Part shown: positions 22,516 through 56,626 of the stretch, piece after piece | How the letters are laid out: each line of letters starts with the position of its first letter | Position numbering within the stretch: position 1 is the first letter of the stretch | Origin: an uncultured archaeon | Lineage (GTDB): Archaea > Altiarchaeota > Altiarchaeia > JAFGQM01 | DNA: 64,000 nucleotides | Assembly: GCA_964540655.1 (NCBI GenBank) | Contig: CAZINR010000001.1 | Location: forward strand, 5,067 to 69,066 | Reading direction: 5' to 3' | The notes under the pieces: model-generated | Told to the model about the DNA's origin: nothing | Databases searched by the model: none | Seen by the model: the letters and a program-made list of their open reading frames with translations, nothing else | Program-made: the position numbers and the translations under genes

Positions 22516-22553
22516 CCAATAAATGTTTATTACTGACCTTTCGTAATTATCCC

Positions 22554-23438
22554 ATGGACCCGAAGACCGCCGCCAAGAAAATCAAATCCATGGAAGTTCG
22601 CGGCGCGCTCAAGATCGCCCTGACTGCCGCGAGCGCACTCAAAGAATACGCTCAGAACTACAAGGGGACGGACTTCATCTCCGATTTCAAGAAGCAGGCC
22701 GAGCTGCTGAAGAAGGCCAGGCCGACGGCAGTGTCGCTTCCCAACACAGTCGACTATCTGACTTACCTGTCCCGCGAGTTCCCAAGGGAGCATCTCCCCA
22801 AGCTGATAGACACGTTCGTGGAGAAGCAGGAGACGGCGCTGGAGAAGATAGCCGTCATAGGGGCCAAGAGGATAAAGGACGGCGACACGATACTGACCCA
22901 TTGCAACTCCTCCACGGCTCTGGACGTAATAGCCGAGGCCGCCAAGACCAAGAATATAAAGGTCATCTGCACGGAGACCCGGCCGAGGAACCAGGGCTAC
23001 ATAACCGCCAAGTTCATGGCTAAAAAGAAGATACCCGTGACATTGGTAATAGACTCGGCAGTGAGGTACGCCATGGAGAAGTTCGATGTGGACAAGGTGG
23101 TGCTGGGAGCCGACACCGTCGCAGCCAACGGGGCAGTAGCCAACAAGATAGGCACCTCTCAGATAGCGCTAATAGCCAAGGAGACCAACGTCCCGGTGCT
23201 GGTCGCCTGCGAGACCCTGAAGTTCTCGCCGCAGACCTATGAGGGCGAGATGATAACCATCGAGGAGAGGGACCCCACCGAGATTCGCCCGACGCTAAAG
23301 GGTGTCAAGATGTGGAATCCGGCCTTCGATTTCACGCCGCCGGAATACGTGGACGCCATAATAACCGAGGATGGAATAATATCGCCTTACATGGCTTATG
23401 AAGTGCTGAAAGATAAGTTCGCATGGGAGATGGAATGA
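22554..23438 (+). CDS. Ribose-1,5-bisphosphate isomerase (eIF-2B alpha/beta/delta-like, e2b2)
   Basis: 294 aa eIF2B-like fold (ILTHCNSS...GADTVAANGAVANKIGT); heads an operon with type III RuBisCO and AMP phosphorylase. Confidence 0.8.
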   Translation: MDPKTAAKKIKSMEVRGALKIALTAASALKEYAQNYKGTDFISDFKKQAELLKKARPTAVSLPNTVDYLTYLSREFPREHLPKLIDTFVEKQETALEKIAVIGAKRIKDGDTILTHCNSSTALDVIAEAAKTKNIKVICTETRPRNQGYITAKFMAKKKIPVTLVIDSAVRYAMEKFDVDKVVLGADTVAANGAVANKIGTSQIALIAKETNVPVLVACETLKFSPQTYEGEMITIEERDPTEIRPTLKGVKMWNPAFDFTPPEYVDAIITEDGIISPYMAYEVLKDKFAWEME

Positions 23439-23962
23439 CTGACATAAAGACTCTCATAGGCCATTCGATAGACGCACTGGAGCAGAGGGACGCCCTCGCG
23501 CTCAGGACGGTCTCTGCGGAAGCTCTCTCTGAAGCGGCCATGGAGGGGCATCGCGAGCACATACTCCTGGCCTTGGTGGATTACGCACTCAGCAAGATAC
23601 TCTCCAAGACCCACTATCAGGACATCAAAGAGGCGTTCTATAAAAAAATTGAGCGCCATTTCAGGGATGCGCGCACCAGCGACAAGAAGGGCATGATAAG
23701 GCACCTGGAGAATATAGAGGACACGGTCATAAAGCTGGACGCGGCGGAGGGCCACTTCTCGGACAACGTCATGGACAAGGCCAGGATAAAGAAGGGCGCG
23801 AAGCTCTATGAGCAGGGACTTTCGCTGCGGAGGGCAGCGGAGCTGACGAGTGCTGACCCGGTCGCGGTGCTGCATTATGTGGGGCACAGCAAGATACACG
23901 AGTTCCGCGGTTCGGGCAGGAACGCTAAACGATTAAAAGCCGCGAAAGAGGTGTTCGGATGA
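23435..23962 (+). CDS. Alpha-helical protein of unknown function embedded in the AMP-salvage operon
   Basis: Start MTDIKTL with ATGA overlap on the e2b2 stop. About 175 aa, predicted all-alpha, no recognisable family. Confidence 0.5.
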   Translation: MTDIKTLIGHSIDALEQRDALALRTVSAEALSEAAMEGHREHILLALVDYALSKILSKTHYQDIKEAFYKKIERHFRDARTSDKKGMIRHLENIEDTVIKLDAAEGHFSDNVMDKARIKKGAKLYEQGLSLRRAAELTSADPVAVLHYVGHSKIHEFRGSGRNAKRLKAAKEVFG

Positions 23963-24621
23963 GAAAGAGGGTTATATGCGACTCGAGTTCGCTGATATCG
24001 ATGGCGATGAACTGCATGCTGCCGTTGATAGCGGAGCTCAGCCAGTCGGCGGACTTCATAATAACCAAGACAGTATACGACGAGATAATCACAAATCCCC
24101 AGCGCAGCAGGCATCACCGCATGGGGCCGCTCAAGTTCAAGGCTCTCCTGGACAACGGCATACTGAAGGTGGAGAGCGCCGACAGGAAAGAGGTCGGCGT
24201 CATCCTTGACATATCCAACAGCATCTATTATGCGCGTCACAATCCACTAACCATCATACAGAAAGGCGAAGCAGAGGCGCTGGCACTGGCCAACGACGGC
24301 GACGTCCTCCTGATGGACGAAAGGACCATGCGCCTTCTGATAGAGAACCCGCGGGATTTGAAGGGTCTGCTGCAGCACCGCATGCATAAAGGCGTAACCA
24401 TGGACAAGAAGCGGAGGGACATGTTCGAGCGGTACTGCAAAGGAGTCTCGGTCATACGCTCCAGCGAGATAGTCGCGGTGGCCTACGAGAAGGGAATATT
24501 GGAGAAGTACTTCTCCGGCCCGAAAAGAGAGCTACTGGAAGCCTGCCTCTGGGCTCTCAAGCACAAGGGGTGCTCACTCTCAGCAGAGGACATAAACGAA
24601 TACCTGAGGATGATGTCATAA
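23959..24621 (+). CDS. PIN-domain-like protein (putative nuclease fold) embedded in the AMP-salvage operon
   Basis: N-terminal VICDSSSLI, ITKTVYDEI, EAEALALANDGDVLLMDE pattern resembles PIN-domain acidic motifs; ATGA overlap upstream and 1 nt before the rbcL ATG. Confidence 0.45.
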   Translation: MRKRVICDSSSLISMAMNCMLPLIAELSQSADFIITKTVYDEIITNPQRSRHHRMGPLKFKALLDNGILKVESADRKEVGVILDISNSIYYARHNPLTIIQKGEAEALALANDGDVLLMDERTMRLLIENPRDLKGLLQHRMHKGVTMDKKRRDMFERYCKGVSVIRSSEIVAVAYEKGILEKYFSGPKRELLEACLWALKHKGCSLSAEDINEYLRMMS

Positions 24622-24622
24622 A

Positions 24623-25885
24623 ATGGCCTATGTAGACCTGAACTACAAACCGTCCAAGGACGACCTGATATGCAAGTACTATGTGGAACCGAACGGCATA
24701 CCTTTGAAGAAGGCGTGCGAGGAAATCGCTGCCGAGTCGAGCATCGGCACTTGGACCGATTTGACGACCCTGAAGCCCGAGACCAGGGAGCGGCTGCAGG
24801 CGAGGGTGTTCGAAATAGACCAGAAGAAGAAGACAGCGCTCATCGCCTATCCCCTGCCATTGTTCGAGCTGGGCAGCATGCCCGAGATACTCTCGAGCAT
24901 CGCCGGCAACATATTCGGCATGAAGGCCTTGAAGAACCTGAGGCTGCTGGACATCTCATTCCCCCTGAAGGCGGTCAAGTCCTTCAAGGGGCCGAAATTC
25001 GGGATACCGGGAGTGCGGGACGTCCTGAAGGTGTATGACCGTCCCCTGGTCGGAACCATAATAAAGCCGAAGGTCGGTCTGGACTACAAAAACCATGCGA
25101 GAGTAGCCTATGAAGCCTGGACCGGCGGCATGGACATAGTCAAGGACGACGAGAACCTGACCAGCCAGACCTTCAACCCGTTCAGGAAGAGGGTCAAGGA
25201 GACCCTGAAGCTGAGGGACGAGGCGGAGAAGGAGACGGGCGAGAGGAAGATGTACATGGCCAACGTCACCGCCGAGACCACCGAGATGATAAAGAGGGCG
25301 GAGTTCGTCAAGGAGCAGGGCGGCGAGTACGTCATGGTGGACATACTGACCTGCGGGTTTTCCGGCCTGCAGACACTGAGAGATGCCGATTTGGATCTTG
25401 TGCTGCATGCGCACAGGGCAGGCCATGCCATGCTGACGCGCAACAAGAAGCACGGCATGACCATGCTGACCCTGGCCAAGATTACCCGTTTGGTAGGGCT
25501 GGACCAGCTTCATATCGGGACCATAGTCGGCAAGATGCACGGCGGAAAGCAGGAGGTCATAGACATAGAAAGGTCTATACAGGACTCTTTCATCGAGGCG
25601 CACGGCGATGTCCTTGAGCAGGAGTGGTACGGAATGAAGCCGGTCTTCCCCGTCTGCTCCGGAGGGCTGCATCCCGGGCACGTCCCCTCGCTGGTCAAGT
25701 ATCTGGGGAGGGACATAATAATCCAAGCAGGCGGAGGATGCCACGGCCACCCGAAGGGCAGCTGCGCCGGTGCGGCTGCGATGCGGCAGGCGGTCGAGGC
25801 GGCCATGGAGGGCAGTTCGCTGAAGGAATATTCACAAAGTCATGAAGAGCTCAAAGCGGCTCTCAAGAAATGGGGTGAAGGATGA
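24623..25885 (+). CDS. rbcL: Ribulose-1,5-bisphosphate carboxylase/oxygenase, type III
   Basis: 420 aa; GGMDIVKDDENL, carbamylated-lysine region, GGGCHGHP loop; archaeal type III length. Confidence 0.9.
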   Translation: MAYVDLNYKPSKDDLICKYYVEPNGIPLKKACEEIAAESSIGTWTDLTTLKPETRERLQARVFEIDQKKKTALIAYPLPLFELGSMPEILSSIAGNIFGMKALKNLRLLDISFPLKAVKSFKGPKFGIPGVRDVLKVYDRPLVGTIIKPKVGLDYKNHARVAYEAWTGGMDIVKDDENLTSQTFNPFRKRVKETLKLRDEAEKETGERKMYMANVTAETTEMIKRAEFVKEQGGEYVMVDILTCGFSGLQTLRDADLDLVLHAHRAGHAMLTRNKKHGMTMLTLAKITRLVGLDQLHIGTIVGKMHGGKQEVIDIERSIQDSFIEAHGDVLEQEWYGMKPVFPVCSGGLHPGHVPSLVKYLGRDIIIQAGGGCHGHPKGSCAGAAAMRQAVEAAMEGSSLKEYSQSHEELKAALKKWGEG

Positions 25886-27435
25886 GCAGCAGACTGGACG
25901 ATGAGCGCATGGGACCGTTGAGCGAGAAGATAAATACGGCCCAACTGGGCGAAAGGCTGAAAGTAAAGATAATAGACATAGATGCTGGTCGGGCAATAGC
26001 CCTTATGCACGAGGACGATGCGCGCAGGCTTTCCATACACATGGGCGACAGGGCATTCCTCTGCAAGAAATCGGCCACATGCGGCGGAGTCGCAATAGTC
26101 GATGTCACGGACACTATGGTCAAGGAAGGGGAAATAGGCGTCTTCAACGATCTGGCGTCGGCGATGAAGCTGACCTCCAGATCTACGGTTTTCGTTTCAC
26201 CGCGAGAGAAGCCCGAATCGGTGTCATACATACGGAAGAAGATAGATGGCCAGGAGCTCTCCAGGAAAGAGATACATACAATCACCAAAGACATAGTCGA
26301 TGATAACCTCAGCGACATAGAGCTCACCTCCTTCGTAACAGCATCGGCCATACACGGCTTCAGCAAGAGAGAGACGGTCTCGCTTACGATGTCTATGGTC
26401 AATACGGGTGACAGACTCGATTTCAAGGGAACGGTAGTCGACAAGCATTGCATAGGCGGGGTCCCCGGCAACCGGACCACCATGATGATAGTCCCGATGC
26501 TGGCTGCTCTGGGCCTTAAGATACCCAAGACCTCCTCTAGGGCCATAACCTCCCCGTCGGGCACCGCAGACACCATGGAGGTCCTAGCACCGGTGAGCTA
26601 TGGGGCCAAGGACGTCAGGAGGTTCGTCAACAAAGTGGGCGGCTGCATAGTCTGGGGCGGCGCAATAAACCTGGCACCGGCCGACGACAAAATAATCCGG
26701 GTGGAATACCCCCTATCTATAGATTCGGAAGGTCAGGTCCTCGCGAGCATAATCTCCAAGAAGAAGAGCGTCGGCAGCGATTATGTCCTTCTGGACATAC
26801 CACACGGCGAAGGCGCAAAGATAGGGGATCGGAAGAGTGCGGATGAGCTGGGGCGCAAGTTCGTCGATCTGGCTGAGGAAGTGGGGATAGAGCTGCATTA
26901 TATACTGACTGACGGGACCCAACCGATAGGAAACGGGATAGGGCCCATACTGGAGGCGAGGGACGTCCTCGGCGCTCTCAATGGCGACGGACCGAAAGAC
27001 CTGGTCGAAAAGAGCGTAATGATGGTCGGCGAGCTGATGGAGTTCTGCGGAGCCGCCTCCAGGGGCGAGGGCAGGAAAGAGGCAAGGGTCTGCCTGGACG
27101 AGGGGGCTGCCAGGAAGAAGATGATGGAGATAATCAAGATACAAGGAGGCGACCCAAAAATCTGCTCTTCGGACTTAAAGCATGGCAAGTTCATGAAGCC
27201 CGTCGTCTCTAAGACGGGCGGCAGAGTCAAGCATATCGACAACATGTCCGTGGCCAAGATAGCGCGGACTGCCGGCTGCCCGAAAGATCCGGCTGCCGGG
27301 ATGCTGCTGGAGAAGAAGGTCGGGGACCGGGTGGACGCAGGTGAGATACTTTTCACAGTATATGCCGAGAACCCGACAAAGCTGAACTATGCGATGAAGC
27401 TTATCAAGAAGAGGAATCCCTTCACGCTTAAGTGA
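25882..27435 (+). CDS. deoA: AMP phosphorylase (thymidine phosphorylase family)
   Basis: 517 aa with the N-terminal extension typical of archaeal AMPpase plus glycosyl transferase family 3 motifs; ATGA overlap with rbcL. Confidence 0.85.
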   Translation: MSSRLDDERMGPLSEKINTAQLGERLKVKIIDIDAGRAIALMHEDDARRLSIHMGDRAFLCKKSATCGGVAIVDVTDTMVKEGEIGVFNDLASAMKLTSRSTVFVSPREKPESVSYIRKKIDGQELSRKEIHTITKDIVDDNLSDIELTSFVTASAIHGFSKRETVSLTMSMVNTGDRLDFKGTVVDKHCIGGVPGNRTTMMIVPMLAALGLKIPKTSSRAITSPSGTADTMEVLAPVSYGAKDVRRFVNKVGGCIVWGGAINLAPADDKIIRVEYPLSIDSEGQVLASIISKKKSVGSDYVLLDIPHGEGAKIGDRKSADELGRKFVDLAEEVGIELHYILTDGTQPIGNGIGPILEARDVLGALNGDGPKDLVEKSVMMVGELMEFCGAASRGEGRKEARVCLDEGAARKKMMEIIKIQGGDPKICSSDLKHGKFMKPVVSKTGGRVKHIDNMSVAKIARTAGCPKDPAAGMLLEKKVGDRVDAGEILFTVYAENPTKLNYAMKLIKKRNPFTLK

Positions 27436-55281: not shown

Positions 55282-55437
55282 ATGAGTTCGAACAAAGACC
55301 AGGAGACCAAGAAGGAGCTCAAGAAGGCGGAGAAGGAATCCAGGCGAGCCCCGATATGGGCGTTCGCCGCAACCAACCGCAAGGTCAGGCGCTCCCCGAA
55401 GAGCGGTCGCAACTGGCGCAGAGACAACATCTACTGA
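55282..55437 (+). CDS. rpl39e: 50S ribosomal protein L39e
   Basis: Manually translated 51 aa: MSSNKDQETKKELKKAEKESRRAPIWAFAATNRKVRRSPKSGRNWRRDNIY; below the ORF-track size cutoff; conserved eL39 pattern (R.P.W...NWRR). Confidence 0.7.
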   Translation: MSSNKDQETKKELKKAEKESRRAPIWAFAATNRKVRRSPKSGRNWRRDNIY

Positions 55438-55439
55438 AG

Positions 55440-55964
55440 ATGGCCGGCAAGGAAGAAGACAGGGAAAAGAAGAAGCCTGAAGAAGGCAAGGCCGAGGATA
55501 ATACTAAAGAGGTAAAAGAAGCAAAGGAAGAAAAGACCTCCGAGGACGGGAAGTCCAAGACCAAGGCCGGAAAAGAGGAGGCGAAGACCGAATCCAAGAA
55601 AGATTCAAAATCCGGGAAAGAAGAGAAGGGCAAAAAGGCAAAGAAGAAAGCCGATGAAAAGCCCAAGGAAGAAAAGAAGAACGAGAAAAAGAAGGGGGAG
55701 AAGGTCGACGTAGTTTCCGAGGACATCTACACGATTCCCCTCAGCAAGGTCTACCGAACCAAGCCCAACTACAAAAGGACCAACAAGGCGGTCCGCATGC
55801 TAACCCAATATCTCAAGCGTCACACCAAATCCGAGGACATAGTGATAGACGGCCAGCTCAACCGCCACATCTGGAGCAGGGGCTCCAAGAAGCCTCCTCG
55901 AAGGGTTCAGGTAAAGGCCGTCAAGGACTCAGAAGGCAGAATAACCGCCACCCTCCTCAAATAA
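55440..55964 (+). CDS. rpl31e: 50S ribosomal protein L31e with about 85-aa Lys/Glu-rich N-terminal extension
   Basis: C-terminal 90 aa match eL31 (IYTIPLSKVYRTKPNYKRTNKAVRML...RHIWSRGSKKPPRRVQV). Start at MAGKEEDREKK directly after the L39e stop. Confidence 0.75.
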   Translation: MAGKEEDREKKKPEEGKAEDNTKEVKEAKEEKTSEDGKSKTKAGKEEAKTESKKDSKSGKEEKGKKAKKKADEKPKEEKKNEKKKGEKVDVVSEDIYTIPLSKVYRTKPNYKRTNKAVRMLTQYLKRHTKSEDIVIDGQLNRHIWSRGSKKPPRRVQVKAVKDSEGRITATLLK

Positions 55965-56626
55965 TGGCTATATACCAGACCGATTTTCTGGGGGAGGGCT
56001 ACCTTGGCCTCTTCGGCTTCGCGACCGACGAGTATTGCCTGATTTCAAATCGCCTAAACCAGCGGAAGTTGAAGGAAATAGAGGATACTCTCGGAGTCGA
56101 GACAATCTCCACACCCATATTCAACTTCTCTTTGTCCGGCATAATGTCGGCCGGCAACTCCCGGGGGGCGTTGCTCCCCTATCTGATCGAGGATGACGAG
56201 CTGGAAAGGATCGGCAAGAAGGTGGGCGTTGCCATAGTCCCAGACAAGTTCACCGCCCTGGGCAACCTCATAGTCGCCAATGACCGCGGCGGGATGATAA
56301 GCGACGTCTTCTCCCAGCGGGCCAAGGTGTCCATCGACGAGGCTCTGGGAATCAACACGATTCAGGGCCAAATCGCCGGCTCCAGCGAGGTCGGAGCGCT
56401 CTGCGCAGCCACAAACAAAGGTTTCGTCGTCAGCCCCGACGTCAATGATGCTGAACTGAAGCAGCTGGAGAAGGTCTTCGGCGTCCCGGGTGGAAGGGCT
56501 TCGGCTAATATGGGCTCCAAGGTCGTGGGCGCCTGTCTGATAGCCAATTCCAACGGCTTCATAGCTGGCCAGGACACCACGCCCATCGAGCTGGAGTACA
56601 TAAACGAGGCGCTGGGCTTCTTATAG
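55964..56626 (+). CDS. eif6: Translation initiation factor 6 (aIF6)
   Basis: 220 aa; pentein repeats with eIF6 signature. Confidence 0.85.
   Translation: MAIYQTDFLGEGYLGLFGFATDEYCLISNRLNQRKLKEIEDTLGVETISTPIFNFSLSGIMSAGNSRGALLPYLIEDDELERIGKKVGVAIVPDKFTALGNLIVANDRGGMISDVFSQRAKVSIDEALGINTIQGQIAGSSEVGALCAATNKGFVVSPDVNDAELKQLEKVFGVPGGRASANMGSKVVGACLIANSNGFIAGQDTTPIELEYINEALGFL

What the first reader, a model, noticed from the sequence alone, without database searches (positions are those of the whole stretch)
22554..27435. Type III RuBisCO AMP-salvage operon carries two inserted genes of unknown function, one PIN-like
e2b2, rbcL and deoA (AMP phosphorylase) are the three known enzymes of the archaeal AMP/pentose-bisphosphate pathway. 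Here five genes are translationally coupled (ATGA overlaps and a 1-nt gap): e2b2 - 175-aa helical protein - 220-aa PIN-like protein - rbcL - deoA. Such tight coupling implies co-function, yet no PIN-like or helical accessory component of this pathway is known. Candidates are a nucleotide/RNA-feeding nuclease supplying NMPs, a regulatory pair, or an embedded toxin-antitoxin-like addiction pair.
Basis: partly seen in the sequence, partly recalled or inferred. Interest (0 to 1): 0.55.

Follow-up and report, generated by a model that had tools for sequence, protein, structure and literature searches.

The report
DPANN-wide HTH–PIN gene pair inside AMP-salvage operon
The two unknown genes inside this archaeal RuBisCO/AMP-salvage operon are an old, vertically inherited pair (a helix-turn-helix protein plus a PIN-type nuclease, distantly like a predicted toxin-antitoxin pair) that occurs across DPANN archaea in unrelated gene neighbourhoods, so they are probably co-expressed passengers and not a missing pathway enzyme.

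Summary
Five + strand genes (e2b2, X of 175 aa, Y of 220 aa, type III rbcL, AMP phosphorylase) are joined by three ATGA overlaps and one 1-nt gap, behind a single conserved TATA-like promoter.

- **Y** is a confident PIN-fold protein (pLDDT 93.9; Nob1 and VapC structures are the best fold matches). Its acidic residues D8, E42, E104 and D120 are invariant in 87 sequences.
- **X** is all-helical, and its C-terminal HTH resembles UPF0175. The literature finds UPF0175 only next to COG2405/DUF3368 PIN proteins, a predicted toxin-antitoxin pair.

X-Y is not specific to the RuBisCO pathway.
- Relatives of Y occur in at least 488 species genomes, nearly all DPANN.
- X sits directly upstream in 72 fetched loci, most often with the same ATGA overlap.
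- Neighbourhoods differ by lineage: oapABC, FEN1, XPF, SpoU.
- The Y tree follows DPANN phyla, and X-Y fusion proteins exist.
- Canonical Altiarchaeia keep an intact Y with no X within the 6 kb read.

Only one Altiarchaeota-related clade places the pair between e2b2 and rbcL/deoA. Within that clade rbcL is repeatedly lost, once as an in-place deletion remnant, while X-Y stays intact.

Verdict: this is a fixed HTH-PIN nuclease module, a new variant of the UPF0175/COG2405 kind. It is co-transcribed with the pathway genes but is unlikely to be a dedicated pathway component.

The parts
22516..22553 (+). Promoter region of the operon. It holds a TATA-like box (AATAAATGTTTATTA, 22518-22532) and a palindromic ATAATTAT element (22545-22552) just upstream of the e2b2 ATG.
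   Evidence: This is the only AT-rich cluster that lies outside coding sequence in 22516-27435. The TTTATTA-like box near -30 and the (C)ATAATTAT-like element near -10 recur upstream of e2b2 in relatives L093, L009/L092, L095, L001 and L005. Promoter function is inferred.
22554..23438 (+). e2b2, ribose-1,5-bisphosphate isomerase (294 aa).
   Evidence: PF01008 E 1.3e-88. TIGR00511 equivalog, 353 bits against a cut-off of 314.
23435..23962 (+). X, 175 aa. It has an N-terminal five-helix bundle (about residues 1-105, with a conserved YALSK motif) and a C-terminal UPF0175-like helix-turn-helix (about residues 110-156, KARIKK..LYEQGLSLRRAAELT). It is the partner of Y.
   Evidence: The ATGA overlap with e2b2 is seen. 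The model is all-helical with pLDDT 86 and has no PDB fold match. 19 of 25 family members give sub-threshold UPF0175 hits, and the hits inspected map about residues 109-170 to profile positions 6-60. A homologue lies directly upstream of Y in 72 fetched loci. X is fused to Y in at least 9 representative clusters.
23959..24621 (+). Y, 220 aa. A PIN-fold putative metal-dependent nuclease with a helical insertion (about residues 122-163) and a C-terminal helical extension (about residues 168-218).
   Evidence: The AlphaFold2 model has pLDDT 93.9 and pTM 0.88. Foldseek's best PDB matches are the Nob1 PIN and many VapC PIN structures, with probability 0.97-1.0 and E-values of 2.5e-3 to 0.1. D8, E42, E104, D120, E121, R122, T123, R125, E129, R167 and S168 are invariant in 87 sequences. 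Precomputed tables list PF11848 (DUF3368) for most homologues, but direct hmmscan did not reproduce this.
24623..25885 (+). rbcL, type III RuBisCO large subunit (420 aa).
   Evidence: PF00016 and PF02788 match. TIGR03326 scores 596 bits against a cut-off of 497. It lies 1 nt after the Y stop. It is present at this position in L009, L010, L012, L093, L094 and L095; absent in L001, L005, L006 and L011; and an internally deleted remnant in L096.
25882..27435 (+). deoA, AMP phosphorylase (517 aa).
   Evidence: TIGR03327 scores 594 bits against a cut-off of 535. It has an ATGA overlap with rbcL.

Best explanation
X and Y form a two-protein module: an HTH protein with an added N-terminal helical domain, and a PIN-fold metal-dependent nuclease with an added insertion and C-terminal extension. 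The module descends from, or is sister to, the UPF0175(COG2886)/COG2405(DUF3368) pairs that are predicted toxin-antitoxin systems. In DPANN archaea it has become a fixed, single-copy, vertically inherited chromosomal module.

**Shown**
- Y has a PIN fold with invariant acidic residues.
- X carries a UPF0175-like HTH.
- X-Y adjacency and translational coupling recur across DPANN phyla.
- X-Y fusion proteins exist.
- The Y phylogeny follows the phyla.
- Only one Altiarchaeota-related clade places the pair inside the e2b2-(rbcL)-deoA cluster.
- X-Y persists where rbcL is lost.

**Inferred**
- X binds Y stoichiometrically. It either tethers or targets Y to nucleic acid through its HTH, or gates the Y active site.
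- Y cleaves RNA (less likely DNA) using Mg2+ or Mn2+ held by D8, E42, E104 and D120.
- In this window the pair is transcribed from the single promoter upstream of e2b2 and translated by termination-reinitiation together with the three enzymes.
- Its expression therefore tracks nucleotide salvage, but it catalyses no step of the AMP pathway.
- The placement arose once in the ancestor of the clade and is retained as part of a generally syntenic, tightly packed region.
For: **Identity of the two proteins**
- Y model: pLDDT 93.9. PIN structures dominate the Foldseek hits.
- Eleven positions, including D8, E42, E104, D120 and E121, are 100% conserved in 87 sequences.
- X family: sub-threshold UPF0175 hits in 19 of 25 members, in a consistent position in the hits inspected.
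- PMC5499597 states that UPF0175 is found exclusively next to COG2405/DUF3368 PIN genes. PMC2701414 predicts COG2886-PIN as a TA pair.

**Distribution**
- 488 genomic stretches encode Y relatives, and the best 80 are almost all DPANN MAGs.
- X lies directly upstream in 72 fetched loci. The junction is -4 in 29 of them and 8 nt or less in 55.
- Contexts differ by lineage: oapA/B/C in Woesearchaeota, FEN1/SpoU or XPF in Micr-/Iainarchaeota, TBP in Altiarchaeia.

**Mode of inheritance**
- The NJ tree of Y groups the Woese/Nano, Micr, Iain and Alti lineages.
- X and Y are single-copy in the window.
- Y diverges at about the same rate as deoA and e2b2 within the clade.

**Stable complex**
- 9 full-length and 3 partial X-Y fusions occur among 147 representatives.
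- One fusion was recovered from independent assemblies.

**Independence from RuBisCO**
- e2b2-X-Y-deoA without rbcL: L005, L006, L011.
- A DUF2207_C membrane gene in the rbcL position: L001.
- An rbcL remnant (aa 1-23 joined to 289-417) and no deoA downstream, with X-Y intact: L096.

**Background packing and synteny**
- purB upstream and DUF389 and aRF1 downstream are also conserved across the clade.
- 44% of same-strand junctions in the window are 10 nt or shorter.
Against: - No biochemical function is shown for either protein.
- Sequence-level membership in PF11848 and PF03683 is not established. Direct hmmscan gives no PF11848 hit, and the UPF0175 hits score 15-22 bits against a cut-off of 27.9.
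- The Y profile finds nothing among PDB sequences. A profile comparison with Shigella VapC fails. Foldseek E-values are modest.
- The spatial clustering of the acidic residues was not measured.
- The e2b2-X-Y-(rbcL)-deoA order is retained across a fairly deep clade (Y identity 51-100%), with overlapping codons in several members.
- A second lineage (Micrarchaeia L029/L078) has rbcL about 0.7 kb from X on the opposite strand.
- A lineage-specific functional link to nucleotide salvage therefore cannot be excluded.
Confidence: 0.55

Rival explanations
1. Pathway accessory. In this clade Y, guided by X, is an RNA-degrading nuclease that feeds the AMP pathway. It cuts scavenged or cellular RNA so that downstream exonucleases yield NMPs for AMP phosphorylase, e2b2 and RuBisCO.
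For: - Five-gene translational coupling behind one promoter.
- The order e2b2-X-Y-(rbcL)-deoA is kept in 13 clade loci, down to 51% Y identity.
- An independent Micrarchaeia lineage has HAD-rbcL divergent from X by 12 bp.
- DPANN RuBisCO is thought to serve nucleotide salvage (PMC6389311).
Against: - More than 60 loci from other DPANN lineages carry X-Y with no e2b2, rbcL or deoA within 6 kb.
- X-Y stays intact where rbcL is deleted or decayed and deoA is not adjacent (L096).
- PIN endonucleases do not produce mononucleotides (established knowledge of the family).
- The flanking region is syntenic as a whole and the genome is tightly packed.
Confidence: 0.12
2. Classical type II toxin-antitoxin (addiction) module. 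Y is a growth-arresting RNase toxin and X a labile, autoregulating antitoxin, and the pair landed inside the operon.
For: - Antitoxin-first two-gene layout with a 4-nt overlap.
- PIN fold closest to the VapC toxins.
- A UPF0175-like HTH partner, as in the predicted COG2886-COG2405 TA pairs.
- Weak hits to the PADLOC candidate defence family PDC-S70.
Against: - The Y tree follows DPANN phyla instead of showing patchy, mobile inheritance.
- The pair is single-copy in the window.
- Thirteen X-less Altiarchaeia Y genes keep every invariant residue.
- X-Y fusion proteins recur. A covalent fusion does not fit control by differential proteolysis.
- X is twice the size of typical antitoxins.
- Y evolves as slowly as the neighbouring enzymes.
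Confidence: 0.15
3. Operon regulator. X is an HTH repressor or activator that binds the conserved palindromic ATAATTAT element at the e2b2 promoter, with Y as co-regulator or sensor, and so controls AMP-salvage expression in this clade.
For: - X has an HTH.
- A perfect palindrome ATAATTAT lies between the TATA-like box and the e2b2 start, and similar elements recur in relatives.
- TA-type HTH-PIN pairs commonly autoregulate their own promoter (established knowledge).
Against: - The element is short and AT-rich, and it overlaps the expected transcription start, so it may simply be a promoter or initiator sequence.
- No binding data exist.
- X-Y sits behind quite different upstream genes in other lineages.
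- The strictly conserved catalytic-type residues of Y argue for an enzymatic role and not a purely regulatory one.
Confidence: 0.1

Closest known systems
UPF0175 (PF03683, COG2886) / COG2405 (PF11848, DUF3368) PIN pairs, predicted type II toxin-antitoxin systems (Makarova 2009, PMC2701414; Matelska 2017, PMC5499597)
   Same: - The two genes have the same order: the HTH protein upstream, the PIN protein downstream, with overlapping codons.
- The X C-terminus aligns to the UPF0175 profile.
- Precomputed tables assign PF11848 to most Y homologues.
- Both families are uncharacterised experimentally.
   Different: - X is about 175-190 aa and has an extra ~105-aa N-terminal helical domain. By my own recollection, typical UPF0175 proteins are about 80-90 aa.
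- Y is about 220-235 aa and has a ~40-aa helical insertion and a C-terminal extension. By my own recollection, typical COG2405 proteins are about 150-160 aa.
- Hits are below Pfam thresholds or were not reproduced here.
- Inheritance is vertical and single-copy across DPANN phyla.
- X-Y fusions occur, and Y survives without X in Altiarchaeia.
VapBC toxin-antitoxin systems (PIN toxin VapC, e.g. 3tnd, 5x3t, 4xgr)
   Same: - PIN fold (Foldseek probability 0.96-1.0).
- Conserved acidic residues at the expected strand ends.
- An upstream DNA-binding partner.
   Different: - No sequence-profile similarity.
- A different partner fold: HTH, not the AbrB, RHH or Phd folds.
- Larger proteins.
- Not mobile or patchy in distribution.
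Nob1 (archaeal/eukaryotic PIN endonuclease that matures the 3' end of small-subunit rRNA; 2lcq)
   Same: It is the best Foldseek match (E 2.5e-3, probability 1.0). Like Y, it is a housekeeping, vertically inherited PIN nuclease.
   Different: - Y lacks the Nob1 zinc ribbon.
- TM-scores are low (0.35/0.46).
- There is no sequence similarity.
- Y has a dedicated HTH partner.
HARP (PIN_5 protein-only RNase P), proposed to be a domesticated TA-type PIN nuclease (PMC6380272)
   Same: It is a precedent for a VapC-group PIN protein of about 200 aa repurposed for a housekeeping RNA-processing role.
   Different: - Y does not match PIN_5.
- HARP was reported absent from DPANN.
- HARP has no HTH partner.
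- The comparison is an analogy only.
Archaeal AMP / pentose-bisphosphate pathway operons (deoA, e2b2, type III rbcL)
   Same: The three enzymes here are bona fide equivalogs and are clustered, as reported for DPANN/CPR form III RuBisCO loci (PMC6389311).
   Different: No described version of the cluster includes an HTH-PIN pair. Here the pair splits e2b2 from rbcL/deoA.

Membership tests
PIN domain-like superfamily (VapC structural group) | Three-layer alpha/beta/alpha fold with a central parallel beta-sheet. | tested here: met
   The model has pLDDT 93.9. Nearly all of the top 50 Foldseek PDB matches are PIN domains (Nob1, VapC, PAE2754, SMG5/6), with probability 0.9-1.0 and target-normalised TM of 0.55-0.68. 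E-values are only 2.5e-3 to 0.2.
PIN domain-like superfamily (VapC structural group) | Three to four strictly conserved acidic residues at the C-terminal ends of strands or N-termini of helices, forming the metal site. | tested here: met
   D8 (end of strand 3-7), E42 (helix after strand 31-36), E104 and D120/E121 (end of strand 116-118) are invariant in 87 sequences; E170 is E or D in all. Their clustering in 3D was not measured.
PIN domain-like superfamily (VapC structural group) | Mg2+/Mn2+-dependent nuclease activity. | not testable with these tools
   This needs enzymology.
COG2405 / DUF3368 (PF11848) | A match to the family profile above threshold. | tested here: inconclusive
   Precomputed tables list PF11848 for most of the 82 homologues, some marked weak. 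Direct hmmscan against the 2025 Pfam copy finds no PF11848 hit for the window protein or for 51 relatives. The Y profile finds no PDB sequence, including 2mdt, the structure Matelska et al. list for COG2405.
COG2405 / DUF3368 (PF11848) | A UPF0175 (COG2886) gene directly upstream. | tested here: inconclusive
   X is directly upstream in 72 loci. 19 of 25 X-family members hit PF03683, with the inspected hits in a consistent position, but at 15-22 bits against a cut-off of 27.9. The window's own X gives no hit.
Type II toxin-antitoxin system | A bicistronic antitoxin-toxin operon with a DNA-binding antitoxin. | tested here: met
   The HTH protein lies upstream of the PIN protein, and the -4 overlap is the modal junction (29 of 72 loci).
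Type II toxin-antitoxin system | Mobile, patchy, often multi-copy distribution that is incongruent with the species tree. | tested here: not met
   The Y tree separates the Woese/Nano, Micr, Iain and Alti lineages. The pair is single-copy in the 64-kb window. Synteny is conserved within lineages.
Type II toxin-antitoxin system | The toxin is not stably maintained in active form without its separate, labile antitoxin. | tested here: not met
   Thirteen Altiarchaeia loci have Y with all invariant residues and no X within 6 kb. X-Y fusion polypeptides occur in at least 9 representative clusters. X could still lie elsewhere in those genomes; this was not tested.
Type II toxin-antitoxin system | The toxin arrests growth and the antitoxin neutralises it. 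| not testable with these tools
   This needs expression assays.
AMP / pentose-bisphosphate (type III RuBisCO) pathway component | Co-occurrence or co-location with rbcL, e2b2 and deoA across lineages. | tested here: not met
   Co-location is seen only in the window's clade (13 loci) and beside rbcL in one Micrarchaeia lineage (L029, L078). More than 60 other loci have none of the three genes within 6 kb. Whole-genome co-occurrence was not tested.
AMP / pentose-bisphosphate (type III RuBisCO) pathway component | Retention depends on an intact pathway. | tested here: not met
   X-Y is intact where rbcL is absent from the locus (L005, L006, L011, L001). It is also intact where rbcL is an internally deleted remnant and deoA is not adjacent (L096). 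rbcL might be encoded elsewhere in some of these genomes.

The most novel reading that the evidence does not exclude
X-Y is a DPANN-signature housekeeping nuclease complex. On this reading, a toxin-antitoxin-type HTH-PIN pair was domesticated early in DPANN evolution, as has been proposed for HARP. It gained extra domains and now carries out a conserved nucleic-acid processing step. That step could be RNA maturation or turnover, or, given recurrent neighbours such as oapABC, FEN1, XPF, TBP and PolD, something tied to replication or repair. In the window's clade its expression has been wired to nucleotide salvage.
Probability: 0.3. Interest if true: 0.65.

Novelty: new variant of a known kind. 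Interest (0 to 1): 0.4.

Why it matters
- **For RuBisCO and AMP-pathway biology, the result is mainly corrective.** The two extra genes are not evidence for an unknown pathway component. The variable element of this locus is rbcL itself, which is repeatedly lost while e2b2, X, Y and usually deoA stay.
- **For DPANN biology, it flags an uncharacterised gene pair.** The pair is strongly conserved and vertically inherited in genomes that have shed most non-essential genes. Such retention, the fusions, and the invariant catalytic-type residues all suggest a real cellular function for a module that would otherwise be dismissed as a toxin-antitoxin system.
- **It is a tractable target.** The two proteins are small and presumably soluble, and they would be a possible example of TA domestication.

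Tried and rejected
- **Single-sequence family and structure searches.** Pfam, NCBIfam, PHROGs and PDB-sequence searches with X and Y gave nothing usable.
- **Profile searches against PDB sequences.** These gave only chance-level hits: a designed CAP repeat, Vps28 and a designed DPBB protein.
- **Profile comparison with VapC.** hhalign of the Y profile against Shigella VapC failed. The VapC sequence was recalled from memory and then verified as 3tnd_A.
- **Fold search with the X model.** Only designed helical repeats and nuclear-receptor domains came back, at probability 0.5 or lower, so no fold was assigned to the N-terminal domain.
- **A second 202 + 220 aa pair in the window (55356-56626).** I suspected a paralogue, but it is L31e plus eIF6.
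- **HARP / protein-only RNase P identity.** I considered and rejected it. There is no PIN_5 match, and HARP is reported absent from DPANN.
- **Metagenome scan with e2b2.** It returned only two loci because single-protein patterns are narrow.
- **The idea that rbcL is the inserted gene.** The first relatives lacked rbcL, which suggested this. I rejected it after finding rbcL at the same position in seven loci and a decayed remnant in L096.
- **P0001.** This exact protein could not be located in the contig index.

Full report
**1.

| Gene | Coordinates | Length | Evidence |
|---|---|---|---|
| e2b2 | 22554-23438 | 294 aa | TIGR00511, 353 bits vs cut-off 314 |
| X | 23435-23962 | 175 aa | no family hit |
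| Y | 23959-24621 | 220 aa | no family hit |
| rbcL | 24623-25885 | 420 aa | TIGR03326 type III, 596 bits vs 497 |
| deoA | 25882-27435 | 517 aa | TIGR03327 AMP phosphorylase, 594 bits vs 535 |

The junctions are ATGA overlaps at e2b2/X, X/Y and rbcL/deoA, and TAA-A-ATG at Y/rbcL.

The only AT-rich cluster outside coding sequence is the 38-bp spacer upstream of e2b2. It carries a TATA-like AATAAATGTTTATTA and a palindromic ATAATTAT. Similar elements recur upstream of e2b2 in relatives. A single five-gene transcript is therefore likely, but this is inferred.

The weight of the coupling must be discounted. Crude gene calls give 91% coding density, and 18 of 41 same-strand junctions are 10 nt or shorter.

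**2. What the two proteins are**

Neither protein hits Pfam, NCBIfam or PDB sequences on its own.

*Y*
- 82 homologues were found. An alignment of 51 of them shows invariant D8, E42, N87, E104, D120-E121-R122-T123, R125, E129 and R167-S168-E170.
- AlphaFold2 on that alignment gives pLDDT 93.9 and pTM 0.88.
- The Foldseek hit list against the PDB is almost entirely PIN domains: P. horikoshii Nob1, then many VapC toxins, PAE2754 and SMG5/6. Probabilities are 0.9-1.0 but E-values are modest, 2.5e-3 to 0.2.
- The invariant acidic residues sit at the ends of predicted strands or in the following helices, as PIN catalytic residues do. Their 3D clustering was not measured.
- Y is therefore PIN-like, with a helical insertion (about residues 122-163) and a C-terminal helical extension.

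*X*
- X is all-helical (pLDDT 86) and has no PDB fold match.
- Its C-terminal KARIKK..LYEQGLSLRRAAELT segment is an HTH.
- 19 of 25 family members give UPF0175 (PF03683) hits. In the hits inspected, X residues about 109-170 map to profile positions 6-60. The scores are below threshold, 15-22 bits against 27.9.

*Literature*
- Matelska et al. state that UPF0175 is found exclusively beside COG2405/DUF3368 PIN genes and that these are potential TA toxins (PMC5499597).
- Makarova et al. predicted COG2886-PIN as a TA pair with an HTH antitoxin (PMC2701414).
- Precomputed tables assign PF11848 (DUF3368) to most Y homologues. Direct hmmscan did not reproduce this, so formal membership remains open.

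**3. The pair is a DPANN-wide module, not a RuBisCO accessory**

- A scan of one genome per species found 488 stretches that encode Y relatives. The best 80 are almost all Woese-, Nano-, Micr-, Iain- and Altiarchaeota MAGs.
- Profile searches of the fetched loci find an X homologue on the same strand directly upstream of Y in 72 loci. The junction is -4 in 29 of them and 8 nt or less in 55.
- The neighbourhoods differ by lineage:
  - GTPase, OapB and OapC homologues, then X-Y, in Woesearchaeota.
  - FEN1-X-Y-SpoU, or X-Y-XPF(ERCC4), in Micr- and Iainarchaeota.
  - Y alone beside TBP, or beside PolD, in canonical Altiarchaeia.
- An exhaustive profile search of 1.84 billion representatives finds a compact family: 355 clusters at E ≤ 1e-30 and 790 at E ≤ 1e-3.
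- Among the top 147 representatives, 9 are full-length and 3 are partial X-Y fusion proteins. One fusion was recovered from independent assemblies.
- A neighbour-joining tree of 87 Y sequences separates the DPANN phyla. It places the window's clade as sister to the X-less Altiarchaeia.
- The 13 X-less sequences keep the invariant positions; only E170 is replaced, by D, in two of them.
- X and Y are single-copy in the window.

Together these features argue against a classical mobile addiction module. They favour a fixed complex with a cellular role.

**4. The link to the AMP pathway is clade-specific**

Only the window's clade has e2b2 upstream of X-Y and rbcL/deoA downstream. Its named relatives are labelled Altiarchaeota.

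| State of the locus | Loci |
|---|---|
| e2b2-X-Y-rbcL-deoA | window, L009, L010, L012, L093, L094, L095 |
| e2b2-X-Y-deoA, no rbcL | L005, L006, L011 |
| DUF2207_C membrane gene in the rbcL position | L001/L002 |
| e2b2-X-Y + rbcL remnant (residues 1-23 joined to 289-417), no deoA downstream | L096 |

- The ancestral state of the clade was therefore e2b2-X-Y-rbcL-deoA. rbcL has been lost several times, and X-Y has remained intact in every locus sampled.
- Trees of the flanking genes show that rbcL presence is patchy.
- Identity to the window runs 59-82% for e2b2, 48-78% for X, 51-79% for Y and 59-81% for deoA. Y is thus under constraint comparable to that on the enzymes.
- The wider region (purL/Q/S/B upstream; DUF389, Na/Ca exchanger and aRF1 downstream) is syntenic across the clade. 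Conserved order here is no more than the background.
- One observation keeps a functional link alive. Two related Micrarchaeia loci (L029, L078) have a HAD hydrolase-rbcL unit divergent from X, 12 bp away in L029. This is one independent event, and by a rough estimate it is compatible with chance.

**5. Most likely mechanism**

*Shown*
- A PIN fold with invariant catalytic-type residues.
- An HTH partner.
- Conserved adjacency and coupling.
- Fusions.
- Vertical inheritance.
- Independence from rbcL.

*Inferred*
- X and Y form a stoichiometric complex.
- X's HTH binds nucleic acid, either for targeting or for autoregulation, and may gate the active site.
- Y is a Mg2+/Mn2+-dependent endonuclease, most probably acting on RNA.
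- In this window the pair is transcribed and translated with the salvage enzymes, so its dosage follows theirs, but it performs no step of the pathway.

I give this reading 0.55. The rivals are a classical TA module (0.15), a nuclease feeding the pathway (0.12) and an operon-specific regulator acting at the ATAATTAT palindrome (0.10).

**6. Comparison with known systems, and novelty**

- The closest known kind is the uncharacterised UPF0175/COG2405 predicted TA pair. This module differs from it in several ways:
  - Both proteins are larger.
  - X has an extra N-terminal domain.
  - Y has an insertion and an extension.
  - Inheritance is vertical and DPANN-wide.
  - The two proteins are fused in some lineages.
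  - Y survives without X in Altiarchaeia.
- At the fold level Y resembles VapC and Nob1.
- HARP is a conceptual precedent for the domestication of a TA-type PIN nuclease (PMC6380272), but it is not a relative.
- The full-text searches run here found no paper that describes this pair or its presence in RuBisCO loci.
- I rate it a new variant of a known kind, with moderate interest (0.4). The RuBisCO-accessory idea is largely set aside. A conserved DPANN HTH-PIN complex of unknown function is a worthwhile experimental target.

Noticed in passing
L020:4042-6708 (also L024, L028, L031, L038 and other Woesearchaeota loci): In Woesearchaeota the X-Y pair follows a GTPase gene (MMR_HSR1), an OapB homologue (PF09846) and an OapC homologue (PF09845). 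In L020 all five genes are contiguous, and OapC overlaps X by 4 nt. The pair may therefore lie near the replication origin in that lineage.
   Followed up: partly
L029:2603-7298 and L078:100-3454: In two related Micrarchaeia MAGs, a HAD-hydrolase gene followed by rbcL lies on the opposite strand. In L029 it starts 12 bp from the X start. X-Y is followed there by an ERCC4/XPF nuclease gene. This is a second, independent proximity of X-Y to RuBisCO and may be chance.
   Followed up: partly
L096:3072-3499 (Candidatus Altiarchaeota GCA_016935655.1): An rbcL remnant lies directly after Y. Residues 1-23 are joined to residues 289-417 of the window RbcL, about 265 residues are deleted, and no deoA follows. 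e2b2, X and Y remain intact.
   Followed up: yes
L001:5906-7607 and L002:3030-4731: In this relative a called 32-aa ORF sits between X and Y, and a 315-aa DUF2207_C membrane protein occupies the position that rbcL has in the window.
   Followed up: partly
P0118, P0160, P0204, P0211, P0224, P0228, P0245, P0248, P0249 (L089-L091 for P0204): These are natural X-Y fusion proteins of 403-430 aa with almost no linker. P0204 is encoded identically on contigs from independent assemblies.
   Followed up: yes
window:22545-22552 and upstream of e2b2 in L093, L009, L092, L095, L001, L005: A perfect palindrome ATAATTAT, or close variants, lies between the TATA-like box and the e2b2 start codon. It could be an operator or simply an initiator or leaderless-start element.
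   Followed up: partly
window:21892-22515 (- strand): A 207-aa Lys/Arg/Glu-rich predicted coiled-coil protein is divergent from e2b2. It matches no family, giving only chance-level coiled-coil hits.
   Followed up: no
Y homologues P0002-P0082: The precomputed Pfam annotation lists PF11848 (DUF3368) for most homologues, even for an N-terminal fragment (P0082). Direct hmmscan against the 2025 Pfam-A copy returns no PF11848 hit for any of them. The cause may be a difference in model version or in filters.
   Followed up: partly
L008, L013-L019, L021, L023, L025, L030, L041, L097: Canonical Altiarchaeia carry Y without any X within 6 kb. Y usually lies divergent from a TBP gene, and in L097 it lies beside an intein-containing PolD DP2 gene.
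   Followed up: partly
window:1-64000: There is no tRNA gene and no Rfam family above gathering score in the whole 64-kb window.
   Followed up: no
L051, L086, L040, L045, L069: Several contigs carrying this DPANN-type pair are labelled Falkowbacteria, 'bacterium', Methanosarcinales or Thaumarchaeota in their records. In the Y tree they nest within Iain- or Woesearchaeota groups, so mis-binning or mislabelling is likely.
   Followed up: no
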